Shown piece after piece: positions 12,136 through 36,804 of a stretch of DNA of 64,000 nucleotides. Position 1 is the stretch's first letter. The number at the start of each line of letters is the position of its first letter. A program made the position numbers and the translations under genes. Where the stretch lies: assembly GCF_051903065.1 (NCBI RefSeq), contig NZ_CP178438.1, one strand, 5' to 3'. The notes under the pieces were generated by a model. That model was not told the DNA's origin. It made no database searches and saw only the letters and a program-made list of their open reading frames with translations. The stretch is from Escherichia coli (GTDB lineage: Bacteria > Pseudomonadota > Gammaproteobacteria > Enterobacterales > Enterobacteriaceae).

Positions 12136-12498
12136 GGGGCTGATTCTGGATTCGACGGGATTTGCGAAACCCAAGGTGCATGCCGAGGGGCGGTTGGCCT
12201 CGTAAAAAGCCGCAAAAAATAGTCGCAAACGACGAAAACTACGCTTTAGCAGCTTAATAACCTGCTTAGAGCCCTCTCTCCCTAGCCTCCGCTCTTAGGA
12301 CGGGGATCAAGAGAGGTCAAACCCAAAAGAGATCGCGTGGAAGCCCTGCCTGGGGTTGAAGCGTTAAAACTTAATCAGGCTAGTTTGTTAGTGGCGTGTC
12401 CGTCCGCAGCTGGCAAGCGAATGTAAAGACTGACTAAGCATGTAGTACCGAGGATGTAGGAATTTCGGACGCGGGTTCAACTCCCGCCAGCTCCACCA
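12136..12498 (+). ncRNA. ssrA: tmRNA (SsrA), intact 363 nt
   Basis: Starts GGGGCTGATTCTGGATTCGACGGG, contains the tag-peptide reading frame region and ends ...GGTTCAACTCCCGCCAGCTCCACCA. Confidence 0.95.
12454..12498. repeat. Prophage attachment-site repeat, ssrA-proximal copy (45 bp)
   Basis: ATGTAGGAATTTCGGACGCGGGTTCAACTCCCGCCAGCTCCACCA is repeated exactly at 45935-45979. Confidence 0.9.
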
Positions 12499-12621
12499 AA
12501 TAAATCAAGGGGTTACGTGAAAGCGTAGCCCCTTTTTCTTTGGTAGTGGCGGCAAAATGGCGACAGACTTTTGCGTCCATCTTGCCTGTCGCCATCTTGA
12601 AATCATGCAAAGAGGTTTCAC

Positions 12622-13104
12622 ATGGAAGAACTTCACTTTGTTTACATCAATGCAAATGGTCGTATCGGTGTTCACTCAATACAGAGCATCAGTTATAGCG
12701 AAAATCATATACAGGGCATTTGTAAGAACACCGATCGAATAAAAACCTTCCGAAAAGACCGCATTCTTAAACAGTACGATTCACCAGAACAAGCCATTCA
12801 GGAATGCGCGTCATTCCTCCCCGAAAACTACTCACATCTCACTAAGCAGTCTGGTCCGAAAAAAAATACATTCGATGTGTGCTTCACCGGATTTAAGAAA
12901 GCAGATAAAGAAAGATTGGTTGATAAGGCGAATGAACAAGGATTAACGGTAAGAACCTCTGTAACCCAAAGCCTTCAGATGCTCTGTTGCGGTTACAATG
13001 CAGGCCCATCAAAAGTATCGGCAGCCAGGATGAAAGGCACAATCATCATAGATGAGCCTGGCTTTATACATTTTCTTGAAACGGGTGAGATCCCAGATGA
13101 ATAA
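12622..13104 (+). CDS. Prophage cargo protein with WYL-like N-terminal segment and BRCT-like C-terminal segment
   Basis: 160-aa ORF between ssrA and ogr; N-terminal ...KTFRKDRI resembles the WYL-domain signature; C-terminal VCFTGF...GTIIIDEPGFIHFL resembles BRCT; by-eye assignments only. Confidence 0.55.
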   Translation: MEELHFVYINANGRIGVHSIQSISYSENHIQGICKNTDRIKTFRKDRILKQYDSPEQAIQECASFLPENYSHLTKQSGPKKNTFDVCFTGFKKADKERLVDKANEQGLTVRTSVTQSLQMLCCGYNAGPSKVSAARMKGTIIIDEPGFIHFLETGEIPDE

Positions 13105-13130
13105 AAACCTGCCGTAGCAGGTTCTCTTTC

Positions 13131-13349
13131 TCAAAAATTCATATGCCCCTGACCACCTGGCAATGGATGTGGAGGGGCTGTAGCAATCAATGCAGGTGTC
13201 ACAATAAACCGGACCACTGTTTCATGGGTAACAAAAGTGCTCCCGCAGTTAATATTTTGGCACTGGCAGTAACGCTCTTTGGTGCTTTCTGTTACTTGAA
13301 AACTGCTCCTTGTGTGCGCCGCATGACCACACTTCGGACAATTCATCAT
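13131..13349 (-). CDS. ogr: Ogr/Delta-type zinc-finger late-gene activator
   Basis: CPKCGH...CQCQNINC four-Cys finger; start set at the internal Met of the listed 87-aa ORF; adjacent to gene D. Confidence 0.8.
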   Translation of the reverse strand: MMNCPKCGHAAHTRSSFQVTESTKERYCQCQNINCGSTFVTHETVVRFIVTPALIATAPPHPLPGGQGHMNF

Positions 13350-13417
13350 ATCCAGATCCCTACCTTTGCTATCAGAATCATTGTAATGATACACAAAATA
13401 TCAATATTGAGAACACT

Positions 13418-14518
13418 TTATTCCATTTCAAGATCATCAATCTTCACTTCGAGTTCAATACTGGTTGTAAAACCGTTATCCGGGCTGACGGTATGTGTCA
13501 GAGTCGTAATGGTCCATTCCGCATCATCTATCGGCTGTTTAAAGCCACTGACTTTCACTGGCATTTCCGTGTAGAGATCTGCCCGACCTTCCGCCAGTTG
13601 TAGCGAGAATGACGCAACGCCGCGTTGCAGGCGTTCCCACTGCATTTTCGCTGCCCGTTCAGCGTTGCTCCGGTTGGCATAAGTGCGATTAAGTACCAGC
13701 ACGTTTTCATCCGTACCCACCAGGTAATCGCCCTGCTTTGCTTCCGGCTCTTTCTTCTGCTTTGCGGTCCTGCGCTTACGCTTCACCGTGGTGCTTTCTT
13801 TCTTCGCGGGTTCGCGGGTATGCAACCAACTGGCAATTACGCCCGTATAGGCTCCGCGATCTGCCAGGGTAAAGCGGTGACTGTCGCCGTCCTTGCGTGT
13901 GATAGTGATCACCGGCAGAGGTTTACCGCTGGCGCTTTTGCCCTGTCCCTGCCGGATGAATAACAGATTGCCATTTTTCACCGACGCAATAGCACCGTAC
14001 TGGCGCGCCAGCCGCATCAGAAAACTGCCGTCACTCTCATTGGTCTGGTCTATATGTTCCACGGGCTTATCCGACAGGTCTTTACCCAGTGCCATCTTCA
14101 GCTTGTGCCGCGCGGCTATTTCCTTCACCACTTCCCCGACGGTGGTCTTGTGCCACGACTTTTCACGACGGGTATTCAGCGTTTCCCGAAAATCAGCACT
14201 TCGCGCCCGGATAGTCAGGCGGTCCGGTGCGCCAGTGTGTTCAATCTCGTCCACCGTGAATGCCCCTTTAGGGAAAAGCGGCTGCCCCTTCCAGCCCAGC
14301 GCCAGCGTAATGACCGCACCACGGCGCGGCAGCACGATTTTTCCGTCGGCGTCGTCCAGCTCCAGATCAAGCTGGTCCGCTTCAAAGCCCCGATTGTCCG
14401 TCAGAGTCAAACTCATCAGGCGGTTATCCAGCACAGTGGTGATATCCCTGCCCTCAATACTGATGCTGAATGCGGGAGTTTTGTTGCCTTTGTTAAGCAG
14501 TTCAGAGCTGAAATTCAC
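13418..14518 (-). CDS. Tail protein D (late control gene D family)
   Basis: 366-aa ORF at the P2 D position; overlaps the U stop. Confidence 0.85.
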   Translation of the reverse strand: MNFSSELLNKGNKTPAFSISIEGRDITTVLDNRLMSLTLTDNRGFEADQLDLELDDADGKIVLPRRGAVITLALGWKGQPLFPKGAFTVDEIEHTGAPDRLTIRARSADFRETLNTRREKSWHKTTVGEVVKEIAARHKLKMALGKDLSDKPVEHIDQTNESDGSFLMRLARQYGAIASVKNGNLLFIRQGQGKSASGKPLPVITITRKDGDSHRFTLADRGAYTGVIASWLHTREPAKKESTTVKRKRRTAKQKKEPEAKQGDYLVGTDENVLVLNRTYANRSNAERAAKMQWERLQRGVASFSLQLAEGRADLYTEMPVKVSGFKQPIDDAEWTITTLTHTVSPDNGFTTSIELEVKIDDLEME

Positions 14519-34511: not shown

Positions 34512-35202
34512 AATTTGCGTCATCATTTTTTTTATTTTCTAAAGACTCAATATACCCTCGCAAATTAAATTCTTTATTTTCTCTGAGTTTAGGTCCTTCT
34601 TTAGTATCTGAGCCTCGTTGCTCACGTAAACTTTTATTCAAAGCATCGATCAATTCTTGTCTAGAGATTTCCGTTGCAATTAACCCATCAAAATATCTCT
34701 TCATTTTTCTCGCGCTCTCGGTTACTTTAACAACTTCAAAACCAAGGCAGAGCAAATAAATTAGCGTTGTTATTGTAAATCCAGTATCTACAGAGATAAA
34801 ATAGCCAATATCGAGCACTTTCTTAAGTGATTCCAAGGGCATAACCATGCACAATAAAACCAAAAGCAAACCAGTGCCAAGATATAAATAAGTCATTGAG
34901 TTTCTTTCAATCAGCTTGAAGTACTCATCTCTCTGACCTTCAAAGCTAGCAACAATCTTAGGGGGTGTTTTTTTTGGAAGATCGAGGTCTCGAATTTTAT
35001 CCTGAAGATCTACGTATCTTTTAATAAGTAAACCGACTATGGCAGCAGTGATTAATGAAAGCGTTTTCGATAAAATATTGCCCATTTCCACGAGCACATT
35101 TAATTTATAATTAATCAGATATACTACACTCGATGCCAATACTCCACTTAAAATGGATAATATTATATAAAACGCATATCGCTCCACTCGATTTTTAATC
35201 AT
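34510..35202 (-). CDS. Cargo protein B: predicted 4-TM membrane protein with charged C-terminal tail
   Basis: 230-aa ORF with four hydrophobic helices (approx. residues 9-30, 43-60, 96-114, 133-149); AT-rich; start overlaps the stop of the upstream ORF (ATGA). Confidence 0.7.
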   Translation of the reverse strand: MIKNRVERYAFYIILSILSGVLASSVVYLINYKLNVLVEMGNILSKTLSLITAAIVGLLIKRYVDLQDKIRDLDLPKKTPPKIVASFEGQRDEYFKLIERNSMTYLYLGTGLLLVLLCMVMPLESLKKVLDIGYFISVDTGFTITTLIYLLCLGFEVVKVTESARKMKRYFDGLIATEISRQELIDALNKSLREQRGSDTKEGPKLRENKEFNLRGYIESLENKKNDDAN

Positions 35203-36230
35203 GGATTTATTACCCCATCAGCTAACAATCTGAGCAACCACTCTACCATTTCCTCACAAACGCTATCAATAACAGGCATCCCATTATTATATTCAATATT
35301 GACGGTGTCTTTTATTTGTATTTCGTCATTTCTTAAAATACCTGCGCCTTTTAACTCTATGGTTAATGCTTCATCACGGTTATCGATAAGAGCCTCCGTA
35401 ATTTTCCTTAAAATATTTTGTTCCTCATCATTAGCTTTATATTTATACCCTATAGAAACATCTATCGTTAAATGTTCTCGAGACATGTCAACTGAAACAT
35501 CCTGTGATGCATTGTGTTTACGCAACACATCAACTCTGTGCTCACCGATAAGAGATTTCAATAATTCACTAGCGACATCATCTACTCCATCTCCATAAGA
35601 GGATAGAGGCAGCTTCAAGCTTACATTTTTTACATTGCTACGCATCAGCAATTCATTAGTCAAACGTAAATTTCCTGCTTGTAATATAATAAAGTTATCA
35701 ACATCAACCCTTAGATTATCCTTCAAAATGTAATTAATATAATTTTCAATATCTTTAATTCTAATTGCACGACTTTGCAATATTATTACATGATTTTTGA
35801 CAATCCCGATATATGCAACACTATCTAAATATTCTTTCGGAACACTTCCAGTAAGCTTTAATGCTTCATAAGCCAATCGATTTTTTTTATATTCTGAAAC
35901 ATCAAAAACTGGCACACTATTCCCTGGCTCAATATAAACTATTTCACCAAAAAATATACCATTCCGTTCGAAGGAATCAGATAAAACCATGTGCGCGTGG
36001 CTGCTAACACAAGGGTCACTATCTCCAGTTTCAAGATAGTAAATTCTGTCCTCAACGGTTGGAAACTTGTGATTAACAATTTCGTTCATACGATTCTGCA
36101 AATCACTTGCTAAAAGAGCATCCTTTTTAGGAAGCATTACTGCGTGTCGATAGTGTAACGCTTTAACTTTTGAGGGATTACTGGCCATGAAACATCCATT
36201 ATTAATCTTAGATTTAGTGATATGGAACAA
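35199..36230 (-). CDS. Cargo protein A: soluble protein of unknown function
   Basis: 343-aa ORF (start may be the internal MASNPSK); AT-rich; no motif recognised; translationally coupled to the 4-TM ORF. Confidence 0.7.
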   Translation of the reverse strand: MFHITKSKINNGCFMASNPSKVKALHYRHAVMLPKKDALLASDLQNRMNEIVNHKFPTVEDRIYYLETGDSDPCVSSHAHMVLSDSFERNGIFFGEIVYIEPGNSVPVFDVSEYKKNRLAYEALKLTGSVPKEYLDSVAYIGIVKNHVIILQSRAIRIKDIENYINYILKDNLRVDVDNFIILQAGNLRLTNELLMRSNVKNVSLKLPLSSYGDGVDDVASELLKSLIGEHRVDVLRKHNASQDVSVDMSREHLTIDVSIGYKYKANDEEQNILRKITEALIDNRDEALTIELKGAGILRNDEIQIKDTVNIEYNNGMPVIDSVCEEMVEWLLRLLADGVINP

Positions 36231-36498: not shown

Positions 36499-36804
36499 TT
36501 AATGCAGCCAGCTGTCGTCTTCCCACACCTTCTGCATAATTTTCATCACTTGTTTTCTTTCTTCGTCCAGTTGCAGTCCGGTCAGTTCCACACCGTTAGA
36601 GCTACCTTTGCGGATACGAATTACCGTTTTGGGATACAGGGGGCGCAGATTGCGGTAAAGCTCGGATTCAAGGGCGTCCAGTGTAGACTGGCTAATCTTC
36701 TGCTCTTTATCGATCATTATTTCAATGCGCATAAAAGTCACCTCAGCTGATGACATCCATTGAGCGGTTGTATTCGTGGGTTCTGATTTTTGCCATGAGT
36801 TCAT
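36499..36804 (-). CDS. DinI-family protein (Tum/DinI-like, SOS module)
   Basis: C-terminal part MRIEIMIDKEQK...LDALESELYRNLRPLYP...QKVWEDDSW resembles DinI; true start may be the internal Met. Confidence 0.65.
   Translation of the reverse strand: MNSWQKSEPTNTTAQWMSSAEVTFMRIEIMIDKEQKISQSTLDALESELYRNLRPLYPKTVIRIRKGSSNGVELTGLQLDEERKQVMKIMQKVWEDDSWLH

What the first reader, a model, noticed from the sequence alone, without database searches (positions are those of the whole stretch)
12499..13130. Small WYL-like/BRCT-like protein inserted between ssrA and ogr
In P2 the ogr gene abuts the attachment site; here a 160-aa ORF sits in that gap. Its N-terminal half ends with ...KTFRKDRI, reminiscent of the R.FRlDRI hallmark of WYL ligand-sensing domains. 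Its C-terminal half (VCFTGF...TVRTSV...GTIIIDEPGFIHFL) has the spacing of a BRCT fold as in NAD-ligase C-termini. A sensor domain joined to a protein/DNA-interaction domain at a prophage end could be a regulator of superinfection exclusion or an anti-defence factor.
Basis: partly seen in the sequence, partly recalled or inferred. Interest (0 to 1): 0.6.

Follow-up and report, generated by a model that had tools for sequence, protein, structure and literature searches.

The report
Prophage WYL–BRCT DNA-sensor gene
A real, conserved 160-residue gene at the ssrA end of a P2/186-like E. coli prophage joins a WYL ligand-sensing barrel to a DNA-ligase/RFC1-type BRCT domain, and belongs to a large uncharacterised family that nearly always sits in the phage's lysogeny (repressor–integrase) module, which suggests but does not show a role in excluding other phages.

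Summary
The ORF at 12622-13104 (+), 160 aa, lies between ssrA (12136-12498) and a convergent ogr (13131-13394).

Both domain guesses hold.
- It is not a DNA ligase and not a gene fragment. Synonymous sites are saturated while dN is only 0.2-0.35.

New findings:
- The family is large: 2694 cluster representatives.
- In distant P2-like phages the gene sits directly downstream of the CI repressor on the same strand (8 loci). In one further locus it is one gene removed from an HTH repressor.
- In enterobacterial ssrA-integrating phages it lies after int, across attP. Integration therefore moves it behind ssrA; 76 of 80 IMG/VR loci have the gene-then-ogr layout.
- About 31% of the closest representatives carry N-terminal transmembrane helices.
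- The other attP flank of this prophage carries an anti-phage dCTP deaminase.

Best reading (confidence about 0.4): a lysogen-expressed nucleic-acid sensor acting in superinfection exclusion or abortive defence, analogous in position to lambda cI-rexAB. No experiment on this family was found. Novelty: new variant of a known kind. Interest 0.5.

The parts
12622..13104 (+). WYL-BRCT gene, 160 aa plus stop. RefSeq calls it 'BRCT domain-containing protein' (WP_000391794.1); it matches phrog_2561.
   Evidence: ORF list. phrog_2561 at E = 2e-77 over residues 1-159. RefSeq annotation. Purifying selection.
12622..12840 (+). N-terminal WYL domain, residues 1-73. A five-stranded Sm-like barrel (residues 3-52) is followed by two short helices (55-73). 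The signature K41-T42-F43-R44-K45-D46-R47-I48 is present.
12871..13086 (+). C-terminal BRCT domain, residues 84-155, of the RFC1/LigA type. The phosphate-pocket residues T89-G90 and K131 are invariant and K96 is nearly invariant.
12610..12615 (+). Shine-Dalgarno sequence AAGAGG, 6 nt upstream of the ATG.
   Evidence: Read from the sequence.
12507..12534 (+). Phage-borne intrinsic terminator that replaces the ssrA terminator after integration (12-bp stem plus a T run). It lies between ssrA and the gene.
   Evidence: Conserved in relatives that integrate at ssrA.
12547..12594 (.). Conserved repeats: TGGCGGC (12547-12553), TGGCGAC (12558-12564) and an inverted GTCGCCA (12588-12594). They are probably Int arm-type sites of the attP P' arm, which overlaps the gene's upstream region.
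   Evidence: TGGC..CAAAATGGC is invariant in an alignment of 10 upstream regions that have different att cores. The function is inferred, not tested.
13106..13123 (.). Stem-loop between the convergent WYL-BRCT gene and ogr.
12454..12499 (+). attL core: the 3' end of ssrA, 46 bp identical to the attR core at 45935-45980.
12136..12498 (+). ssrA (tmRNA), the integration target. It lies immediately upstream, on the same strand as the gene.
   Evidence: ARAGORN.
13131..13394 (-). ogr, the late-gene activator, convergent with the WYL-BRCT gene.
   Evidence: NCBIfam PRK09678 at E = 1.9e-32, 111.6 bits against a curated cut-off of 116. RefSeq annotation as an ogr/Delta-like zinc-finger family protein.
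42294..43941 (+). CI repressor (42294-42926) and integrase (42928-43941). In the circular phage this lysogeny operon points towards attP and the WYL-BRCT gene.
   Evidence: for the ORFs. RefSeq annotation of a near-identical prophage. Integrase families.
43955..45712 (-). Anti-phage dCTP deaminase, cargo on the int side of attP.
   Evidence: NCBIfam NF041025 at 420 bits against a cut-off of 400; PADLOC dCTPase at E = 2e-146.

Best explanation
**What it is.** The gene encodes a soluble two-domain protein with no enzymatic and no helix-turn-helix domain. A WYL barrel is linked by a flexible 10-residue linker to a single BRCT domain. In characterised proteins the WYL barrel binds single-stranded DNA. 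The BRCT domain is of the RFC1/LigA class, which binds DNA backbone and 5'-phosphate ends.

**Where it belongs.** It is an accessory gene of the lysogeny module of P2-like phages. In most lineages it is co-transcribed with the CI repressor. In the enterobacterial ssrA-integrating lineage it sits beyond int and attP, so integration places it directly behind the host ssrA gene.

**Most likely function.** It is made in the lysogen and recognises an abnormal DNA structure, such as ssDNA next to a 5'-phosphorylated end, nick or gap. Such structures are presented by an incoming or replicating foreign phage genome. Recognition would block that phage, either by superinfection exclusion or by abortive defence.

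**How the forms may differ.** In membrane-anchored relatives the same sensor module is fused to 1-3 transmembrane helices. The stand-alone E. coli form would act by occluding the DNA end or nick, or by recruiting a host factor.

**Shown versus inferred.** Shown: the domain architecture, conservation, genomic linkage and fusions. Inferred: expression in the lysogen, the ligand, and the defence role.
For: **Architecture**
- BRCT domain. WYL domain.
- The BRCT phosphate pocket is conserved. T89, G90 and K131 are invariant and K96 is at least 90% conserved. They align with the TG, R and K positions of Rfc1.
- The isolated Rfc1 BRCT binds 5'-phosphorylated DNA ends, especially those with a 3' ssDNA overhang, with a Kd of about 10 nM (PMC9293009).
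- R47 of the WYL domain aligns with E. coli CapW R200, a residue required for the ssDNA response (PMC11662680).

**Lysogeny-module linkage**
- The gene is directly downstream of the CI/HTH repressor, on the same strand, with gaps of 3-35 nt, in eight loci: Mannheimia PHL101, Vibrio PV94, Xenorhabdus, Yersinia ruckeri, P0186, P0132, P0214 and P0236.
- In Serratia it is one gene removed from an HTH repressor. In a Burkholderia phage it follows a helix-ribbon-helix protein and a hydrolase.
- It lies after int and across attP in E. coli, Klebsiella, phage Cartapus and Yersinia phage MLG42.
- In 76 of 80 IMG/VR loci a convergent ogr follows within 400 bp.

**Support for a defence or exclusion role**
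- The cI-to-int slot of K139-like vibriophages is a published anti-phage hotspot (PMC9122126).
- The opposite attP flank here carries an anti-phage dCTP deaminase.
- 46 of the 150 closest representatives carry hydrophobic N-terminal helices. All three of these with usable context sit right behind the repressor.
- A distant member lies on an integrative island next to an Mrr-type nuclease and a DNA methylase.
- WYL domains are typical sensors of defence systems (PMC4012209).
Against: - No effector domain is present in the 160-aa form, and no conserved partner gene accompanies it.
- No sigma-70 promoter was found between the ssrA terminator and the ATG. Expression in the E. coli lysogen is therefore assumed, through ssrA read-through or a weak promoter.
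- The two arginines that flank the WYL motif and contact ssDNA in CapW/BrxR are E27 and Q31 here, so the ligand may not be ssDNA.
- The protein matches no defence model beyond its BRCT half. PADLOC gives only PDC-S48 at E = 1.8e-7 on the BRCT half. The NCBIfam GapS2 model gives no hit for the query.
- No paper testing this family was found.
- Linkage to the repressor fits a regulatory role equally well.
Confidence: 0.4

Rival explanations
1. **DNA-damage sensor acting on the immunity switch.** The WYL domain senses ssDNA produced by DNA damage, as in PafBC, DriD and CapW. The protein then modulates the neighbouring CI repressor or Int/excision, for example as a ligand-gated anti-repressor or stabiliser. 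This would give non-cleavable 186/P2-type repressors an SOS-independent input for induction.
For: - The gene is tightly linked to CI and probably co-transcribed with it.
- Its best structural relatives (PafBC, DriD, CapW) are ssDNA-responsive regulators (PMC11662680, PMC12041258).
- BRCT domains commonly mediate protein-protein contacts (PMC10386641).
Against: - About a third of the closest relatives are membrane-anchored, which is hard to reconcile with a soluble switch co-factor.
- One relative sits behind a Peptidase_S24 repressor that can already respond to RecA.
- In E. coli the gene is physically separated from CI by int, a cargo gene and attP, and the CI families it accompanies differ.
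- No DNA-binding HTH or WCX domain is present.
Confidence: 0.2
2. **DNA-end or nick-binding helper for the phage's own DNA.** A LigA-like BRCT plus an ssDNA binder would bind the cohesive ends, nicks or gaps of the phage's own genome. This would protect them from nucleases or recruit host LigA, Pol I or the clamp. It would assist circularisation, integration/excision or rolling-circle replication.
For: - By sequence the BRCT is closest to the LigA and Rfc1 BRCTs.
- Database names such as 'DNA ligase' and 'exonuclease' reflect this similarity.
- The gene neighbours int and attP in enterobacterial phages.
- Transcription from the lysogenic promoter would also occur early after infection.
Against: - P2 itself and many P2-like phages lack the gene, so it is not needed for the basic life cycle.
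- Membrane-anchored and domain-fused variants, and its presence on a non-phage island, point away from a housekeeping helper.
- Tyrosine recombinases need no ligase.
Confidence: 0.15
3. **Anti-defence factor.** The protein would act as a decoy or sponge. It would soak up the ssDNA or nucleotide signal that host WYL regulators or sensors read, or mask DNA ends from host nucleases and sensors. This would protect the phage during infection or induction.
For: - The WYL fold is the same as that of host defence regulators.
- The protein is small and has no effector domain.
Against: - Its position in the repressor operon means it is made mainly in the lysogen, not in the lytic programme.
- Transmembrane fusions are not typical of sponges.
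- It has no similarity to any described anti-defence protein in the libraries searched.
Confidence: 0.1
4. **Non-functional remnant.** The ORF would be a fragment of an NAD-dependent DNA ligase or of another disrupted gene, or a spurious ORF in the attP arm.
For: Some records name it 'DNA ligase'.
Against: - The full-length family norm is 155-175 aa, and homologues align over residues 1-160.
- LigA models match only their last 70-100 positions, at 12-20 bits against cut-offs of 369 or more.
- dN is far below a saturated dS and no homologue has a stop codon.
- Both domains fold with confidence.
Confidence: 0.02

Closest known systems
wHTH-WYL-WCX regulators (CapW, BrxR, PafBC, DriD)
   Same: - The RxFRxDRI-type motif is present.
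- R47 aligns with CapW R200, which is needed for the ssDNA response (PMC11662680).
- Both are associated with phage-host conflict loci.
   Different: - There is no wHTH, linker or WCX domain; a BRCT domain follows instead.
- The literal WYL tripeptide is H29-I30-Q31 here.
- The CapW/BrxR arginines of the RWHVR motif are E27 and Q31 here.
- The protein is about 160 aa rather than about 290 aa, and it is not placed next to an operon it could regulate.
BRCT domains of NAD+-dependent DNA ligase LigA and of clamp-loader subunit Rfc1
   Same: - These are the closest sequence matches.
- The single BRCT has the conserved T-G loop and the lysine at the start of helix 2, which form the phosphate pocket.
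- The Rfc1 BRCT binds 5'-phosphorylated DNA ends (PMC9293009).
   Different: - It has no adenylation, OB, zinc-finger or HhH domains and no AAA+ module, so it is neither a ligase nor a clamp loader.
- Whether it binds DNA at all has not been tested.
Lambda cI-rexA-rexB and other exclusion genes co-transcribed with a prophage repressor, including the cI-int hotspot of K139-like vibriophages (Rousset et al. 2022, PMC9122126)
   Same: - The position is the same: directly behind the immunity repressor, on the same strand.
- Some relatives combine a cytoplasmic sensor with membrane helices, as RexA plus RexB do.
- In Vibrio phage PV94 the gene lies in the described cI-int slot.
   Different: - There is no sequence or fold relationship to RexA or RexB; the resemblance is positional and conceptual (from my own knowledge of lambda).
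- The E. coli form has no membrane part.
GapS2 (GAPS2), a single-protein anti-phage system of Vibrio GMT islands (bioRxiv 10.1101/2023.03.28.534373)
   Same: - It is a small (189 positions) single-gene defence protein.
- The C-terminal half of its NCBIfam model aligns with BRCT domains of this family's relatives (E = 6e-10 to P0121; weak hits to P0196 and P0102).
   Different: - The query does not match the GapS2 model at all.
- Only the BRCT part is shared by relatives, far below the 330-bit cut-off.
- The nature of the GapS2 N-terminal half could not be examined.
PADLOC candidate PDC-S48
   Same: The C-terminal BRCT region matches at E = 1.8e-7, model positions 335-406 of 411.
   Different: Only the BRCT is shared. 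The first about 330 positions of the model have no counterpart in the query.

Membership tests
WYL domain (Pfam PF13280) | Sm-like five-stranded beta-barrel fold. | tested here: met
   [not shown]
WYL domain (Pfam PF13280) | Significant match to the family profile. | tested here: inconclusive
   The query itself gives no WYL hit at E <= 10. However, 2 of 48 close homologues and 15 of 51 longer homologues match at E <= 1e-3, the best at 2.3e-8. P0186 matches the PafBC WYL domain at E = 4.6e-4. Membership is therefore established transitively.
WYL domain (Pfam PF13280) | C-terminal R-x-F-R-x-D-R-I motif and the W-Y-L strand. | tested here: inconclusive
   The motif is present as K41-T-F-R-K-D-R-I48, with T42 invariant and F43, R44 and D46 at least 90% conserved. 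The W-Y-L tripeptide is H29-I30-Q31 and the flanking CapW arginines are absent.
WYL domain (Pfam PF13280) | Binds a nucleic-acid or nucleotide ligand (ssDNA in PafBC, DriD and CapW). | not testable with these tools
   Testing this needs EMSA, fluorescence anisotropy or a co-structure.
BRCT domain (Pfam PF00533), RFC1/LigA DNA-binding class | BRCT fold: a four-stranded parallel sheet flanked by helices. | tested here: met
   [not shown]
BRCT domain (Pfam PF00533), RFC1/LigA DNA-binding class | Phosphate pocket: an S/T-G loop after strand 1 and a Lys at the N-terminus of helix 2. | tested here: met
   T89, G90 and K131 are invariant and K96 is at least 90% conserved in 48 sequences. They align to the TG, R and K positions of yeast Rfc1. 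Motif definition from PMC10386641.
BRCT domain (Pfam PF00533), RFC1/LigA DNA-binding class | Binding of 5'-phosphorylated DNA ends or nicks. | not testable with these tools
   Inferred only from the residue conservation above.
NAD+-dependent DNA ligase LigA (the 'DNA ligase' database label) | Adenylation, OB, Zn-finger and HhH domains; full-length match above the curated cut-off. | tested here: not met
   TIGR00575 scores 19.6 bits against a cut-off of 444, and only model positions 549-650 of 652 are matched. The protein is 160 aa.
wHTH-WYL-WCX transcription regulators (CapW/BrxR/PafBC/DriD) | An N-terminal winged HTH and a C-terminal WCX domain flanking the WYL domain. | tested here: not met
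   [not shown]
GapS2 anti-phage protein (NCBIfam NF047932) | Full-length match at or above 330 bits. | tested here: not met
   The query gives no hit at E <= 1. Relatives reach 13-40 bits on the BRCT part only.
Prophage lysogeny-operon exclusion genes (functional class, e.g. lambda rexAB) | Co-transcription with the immunity repressor in the lysogen. | tested here: inconclusive
   Eight loci show same-strand placement 3-35 nt after CI. In this window the gene is instead behind ssrA and a terminator, with no recognisable promoter. No transcript data are available.
Prophage lysogeny-operon exclusion genes (functional class, e.g. lambda rexAB) | Protection of the lysogen against other phages. | not testable with these tools
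   Testing this needs plating assays.

The most novel reading that the evidence does not exclude
WYL-BRCT proteins would be a new, widespread class of single-gene, repressor-linked prophage immunity determinants. The WYL barrel and the 5'-phosphate-binding BRCT would together recognise the ssDNA/5'-P junction of an entering or replicating phage genome, for example cohesive ends, nicks or gaps. In the soluble form they would block its circularisation or replication. In the membrane-anchored form they would trigger or perform exclusion at the inner membrane. In the enterobacterial lineage, integration would rewire the gene from the phage Pc operon to read-through from the very highly expressed host ssrA gene.
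Probability: 0.25. Interest if true: 0.7.

Novelty: new variant of a known kind. Interest (0 to 1): 0.5.

Why it matters
- **A different WYL output.** The WYL domains characterised so far that sense ssDNA do so as part of HTH transcription factors. Here the same sensor is wired to a DNA-end-type BRCT domain, and in relatives to membrane helices. This would be a non-transcriptional output for WYL sensing.
- **Abundance and testability.** The family is abundant: 2694 cluster representatives across Gamma- and Betaproteobacteria, and about 3% of complete E. coli genomes. It is mis-annotated as 'DNA ligase' or 'exonuclease'. It occupies one of the most informative positions in a temperate phage, directly behind the immunity repressor. 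A 480-bp single gene is trivial to test.
- **What a result would add.** If it protects lysogens, it adds a new single-gene defence and a new DNA-structure sensing principle. If instead it tunes induction, it would explain how P2/186-type phages with non-cleavable repressors read DNA damage.
- **Cargo slots.** The finding also marks both flanks of attP in ssrA-integrating P2-like phages as cargo slots. The slot on the other side holds an anti-phage dCTP deaminase here, and a RES-domain protein or an HNH nuclease in relatives.

Tried and rejected
- **DNA ligase or exonuclease identity: rejected.** Only the BRCT tail of the LigA and DEDDh models matches, far below their cut-offs.
- **Fragment of a longer gene: rejected.** The family norm is 155-175 aa and both domains are complete.
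- **Direct sequence link of the N-terminal half to solved WYL proteins: not significant.** The N-terminal profile gave only PafBC at E = 1.8. The link came from fold comparison and from a relative.
- **Promoter: none found.** The consensus scan found no sigma-70 promoter upstream of the ATG. A manual look at relatives gave only a weak TTCATT-18-TGTAAT candidate in the Klebsiella-type sequences. I do not rely on it.
- **Conserved partner gene: none.** Neighbours differ in every lineage.
- **'Domain X' in fused relatives: unidentified.** It has no Pfam, PDB or PADLOC match.
- **GapS2 and PDC-S48 membership: not met.** Only the BRCT part is shared. I could not obtain the GapS2 sequence to examine its N-terminal half.
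- **Literature: nothing found.** Searches for WYL+BRCT+phage, BRCT+prophage+P2-like, BRCT+anti-phage, and for accession and family identifiers found no study of this protein. Makarova et al. 2014 only list WYL-BRCT among observed fusions.
- **AFDB50 fold search: uninformative.** It returned only uncharacterised homologues named BRCT, WYL or 'DNA ligase'.
Full report
**1. What is in the sequence**

The window is E. coli chromosome (bamD...smpB-ssrA upstream, glaH-lhgO-gabDTP downstream). It carries a 33.5-kb P2/186-like prophage integrated in ssrA.
- ARAGORN finds the tmRNA gene at 12136-12498.
- A 46-bp att core at 12454-12499 is repeated exactly at 45935-45980.
- Inside the left end, a 160-codon ORF runs from 12622 to 13104 on the plus strand. 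It is preceded by AAGAGG, 6 nt before the ATG, and followed by a stem-loop at 13106-13123.
- It is convergent with ogr (13131-13394, minus strand) and gpD (13418-14518, minus strand).

**2. It is a real, conserved gene**

- The ssrA-ORF-ogr arrangement occurs at 98-100% identity in about 170 of 5426 complete E. coli genomes. RefSeq annotates the ORF as 'hypothetical' or 'BRCT domain-containing protein'.
- It is also present in isolated phages: Cartapus, 500465-1 and Yersinia phage vB_YpM_MLG42.
- Orthologues at 57-77% amino-acid identity occur in Klebsiella, Citrobacter, Enterobacter, Pantoea, Pectobacterium and others. They keep a length of 157-162 aa.
- Against ten such orthologues, dN is 0.20-0.35 while synonymous sites are saturated, and none has a stop codon.
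- The labels 'DNA ligase' and 'putative exonuclease' in phage records are over-interpretations. LigA and DEDDh models match only their C-terminal BRCT segment, at 12-26 bits against cut-offs of 369-1051.

**3. Domain architecture**

An alignment-based AlphaFold model is confident per domain (mean pLDDT 91.5). Only the linker at residues 71-80 is weak, and the pTM of 0.51 indicates two independently placed domains.

C-terminal half (residues 84-155):
- Pfam BRCT hits 17 of 48 homologues at E <= 1e-3.
- The family profile matches the Rfc1 and LigA BRCT domains best, at E about 3e-5.
- The residues that form the BRCT phosphate pocket are the T/S-G loop after strand 1 and the lysine at the start of helix 2 (PMC10386641). 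Here they are T89-G90 and K131, all invariant. K96 is nearly invariant and aligns with the Rfc1 arginine.
- The isolated Rfc1 BRCT binds 5'-phosphorylated duplex ends, preferably with a 3' single-stranded overhang, at about 10 nM (PMC9293009).

N-terminal part, modelled separately (pLDDT 93.5, pTM 0.80):
- Pfam WYL does not reach the query itself. It does hit 15 of 51 longer relatives at E <= 1e-3.
- One relative matches the PafBC WYL domain directly at E = 4.6e-4.
- That alignment also maps residues. K41-T-F-R-K-D-R-I48 is the R-x-F-R-x-D-R-I signature, and R47 corresponds to E. coli CapW R200, which is required for the ssDNA response (PMC11662680).
- The RWHVR arginines of CapW/BrxR correspond to E27 and Q31 here. 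The PafBC sequence aligned (DSTWYFEAYCH) has no arginine at either of these flanking positions, so their absence does not exclude ssDNA as ligand, but it leaves the ligand open.
- The WYL+BRCT combination had been listed among observed WYL fusions, without further study (PMC4012209).

**4. Family and fusions**

- A profile search of 1.84 billion cluster representatives finds 2694 relatives at E <= 1e-3 and 203 at E <= 1e-30.
- Of the 150 best, 84 are stand-alone proteins of 200 aa or fewer. 46 carry one to three strongly hydrophobic helices, nearly all N-terminal to the intact WYL-BRCT module. 20 are longer without such helices.
- Some of the longer ones have a second BRCT. Others have an unrecognised domain of about 200 aa, which can lie on either side of the module and has no Pfam or PDB match.
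- The WYL-BRCT unit therefore behaves as a portable module that is often tethered to the membrane.

**5. Genomic context**

In every P2-like phage examined the gene is in the lysogeny module, on the repressor strand.

Directly downstream of the CI/HTH repressor:
- Mannheimia PHL101: a 3-nt gap, with the ribosome-binding site inside the end of cI.
- Vibrio PV94.
- Xenorhabdus: the order is CI, then the gene, then int.
- Yersinia ruckeri.
- Three membrane-anchored variants: P0186, P0214 and P0236.
- A domain-fused variant that sits behind a Peptidase_S24 repressor.

One gene removed: the Serratia locus, where an HTH repressor and one further gene precede it. In a Burkholderia phage it follows a helix-ribbon-helix protein and a hydrolase.

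In the enterobacterial ssrA-integrating lineage the order on the circular phage is CI, int, optional cargo, attP, the gene, then a convergent ogr. This is seen in Cartapus and MLG42.
- Integration therefore detaches the gene from CI-int and puts it immediately behind ssrA (E. coli and Klebsiella).
- In 76 of 80 IMG/VR proviral loci with at least 55% identity, a convergent ogr follows within 400 bp. In 49 of them the ssrA core is within 300 bp upstream. Most of the rest start at the gene.

Other context points:
- One distant member lies at the edge of a small integrative island, next to an Mrr-type nuclease and a DNA methylase.
- Rousset et al. described the cI-int interval of K139-like vibriophages as an anti-phage hotspot (PMC9122126). 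PV94 carries the gene exactly there.
- In this window the int-side flank of attP holds an anti-phage dCTP deaminase, at 420 bits against a cut-off of 400. Relatives hold a RES-domain protein or an HNH nuclease in that position.

**6. Expression in this window**

- Between the phage-borne ssrA terminator (12507-12534) and the ATG there are 87 nt with no recognisable sigma-70 promoter.
- This stretch contains an invariant TGGCGGC-AAAA-TGGCGAC repeat plus an inverted copy. The repeat is conserved even in relatives with other att cores. It most likely represents Int arm-type sites of the attP P' arm; this is an inference.
- Transcription in the lysogen may depend on read-through from ssrA. If so, the lysogen-state expression that CI co-transcription provides elsewhere would be preserved. 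This is inference only.

**7. Mechanism**

Shown:
- The protein is a sensor-type WYL barrel plus a phosphate-pocket BRCT, with no enzymatic or HTH domain.
- It is under purifying selection.
- It is linked to the immunity repressor across Pasteurellaceae, Vibrionaceae, Yersiniaceae, Morganellaceae and Enterobacteriaceae. It is also present in Burkholderia phages, where no CI-type repressor lies next to it.
- It is frequently fused to membrane helices.

Inferred:
- It is produced in lysogens.
- It recognises a DNA structure combining ssDNA with a 5'-phosphorylated end, nick or gap.
- It thereby interferes with a superinfecting or replicating foreign phage.
- This would be analogous in position and logic to lambda cI-rexA-rexB (my own knowledge; there is no homology).

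I give this about 0.4. The main rival (about 0.2) is an ssDNA-gated modulator of the CI/Int switch. A helper for the phage's own DNA ends (about 0.15) and an anti-defence decoy (about 0.1) remain possible. A pseudogene or ligase fragment is excluded.

**8. Novelty and verdict**

- No publication on this protein or family was found. PHROGs, RefSeq and UniProt/AFDB carry only domain-level or wrong names.
- Both domains are known kinds. The combination, its systematic placement behind prophage repressors, the membrane-tethered versions and the att-spanning relocation are not described.
- I classify it as a new variant of a known kind: a WYL-sensor protein and prophage lysogeny-module cargo gene.
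- Interest is 0.5. It is a clean, cheap-to-test candidate rather than a demonstrated new system.

Noticed in passing
window 43955-45712 (-): A 585-aa gene lies between int and attR. It is an anti-phage dCTP deaminase (NCBIfam NF041025 at 420 bits against a cut-off of 400; PADLOC dCTPase at E = 2e-146). In related phages the same int-to-attP slot holds a RES-domain protein (Cartapus) or an HNH endonuclease (E. coli MARGA_3). This slot therefore looks like a second cargo or defence hotspot of ssrA-integrating P2-like phages, distinct from the cos-proximal hotspot of Rousset et al.
   Followed up: partly
window 12547-12594: A direct repeat TGGCGGC-AAAA-TGGCGAC and an inverted third copy GTCGCCA lie upstream of the gene. 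The core TGGC..CAAAATGGC is invariant in 10 relatives, including ones with different att cores. These are probably Int arm-type binding sites of the attP P' arm, which would overlap any promoter of the gene.
   Followed up: partly
window 12507-12534: The prophage supplies its own strong terminator (12-bp stem) and the last 46 bp of ssrA, so the tmRNA 3' end and terminator are phage-derived in the lysogen. The WYL-BRCT gene lies 87 nt further downstream on the same strand, so ssrA read-through could drive it.
   Followed up: no
proteins P0122, P0124, P0132, P0179 (loci L017, L105): An unrecognised domain of about 200 aa is fused either N- or C-terminally to the WYL-BRCT module. Its shared motifs resemble W.F.V..AFR.ALD ... 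WTQGH.F.F..GD. It probably corresponds to phrog_36782 and phrog_6785. It has no Pfam, PDB-sequence or PADLOC match.
   Followed up: partly
window 46140-50495: Immediately outside attR lie an Ag43/AIDA-type autotransporter gene (1046 aa, minus strand) and an IS5-family transposase (49527-50495, minus strand). They precede the glaH-lhgO-gabDTP genes, so there is further horizontally acquired material at the ssrA locus.
   Followed up: no
L007 (E. coli MARGA_3, NZ_CM170101.1 1176000-1183000): In a strain with a near-identical prophage, a P4-like satellite lies in tandem just beyond the P2-like prophage's int end. It encodes a polarity-suppression protein, an integrase, and an ATP-dependent nuclease plus helicase pair.
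   Followed up: no
window 36499-36804 (-) and 35199-36230 (-): A DinI-like gene and a 343-aa ORF with no NCBIfam match lie in the region between the replication gene A and the portal/terminase genes. That is the published cos-proximal P2 hotspot.
   Followed up: no
NCBIfam NF047932 (GapS2) versus P0121, P0196, P0102: The C-terminal half of the GapS2 anti-phage model (positions about 99-188 of 189) aligns with BRCT domains, at E = 6e-10 to a five-BRCT protein. The original GMT-island paper reported no recognisable domain in GAPS2, so GAPS2 may contain an unnoticed BRCT domain.
   Followed up: partly
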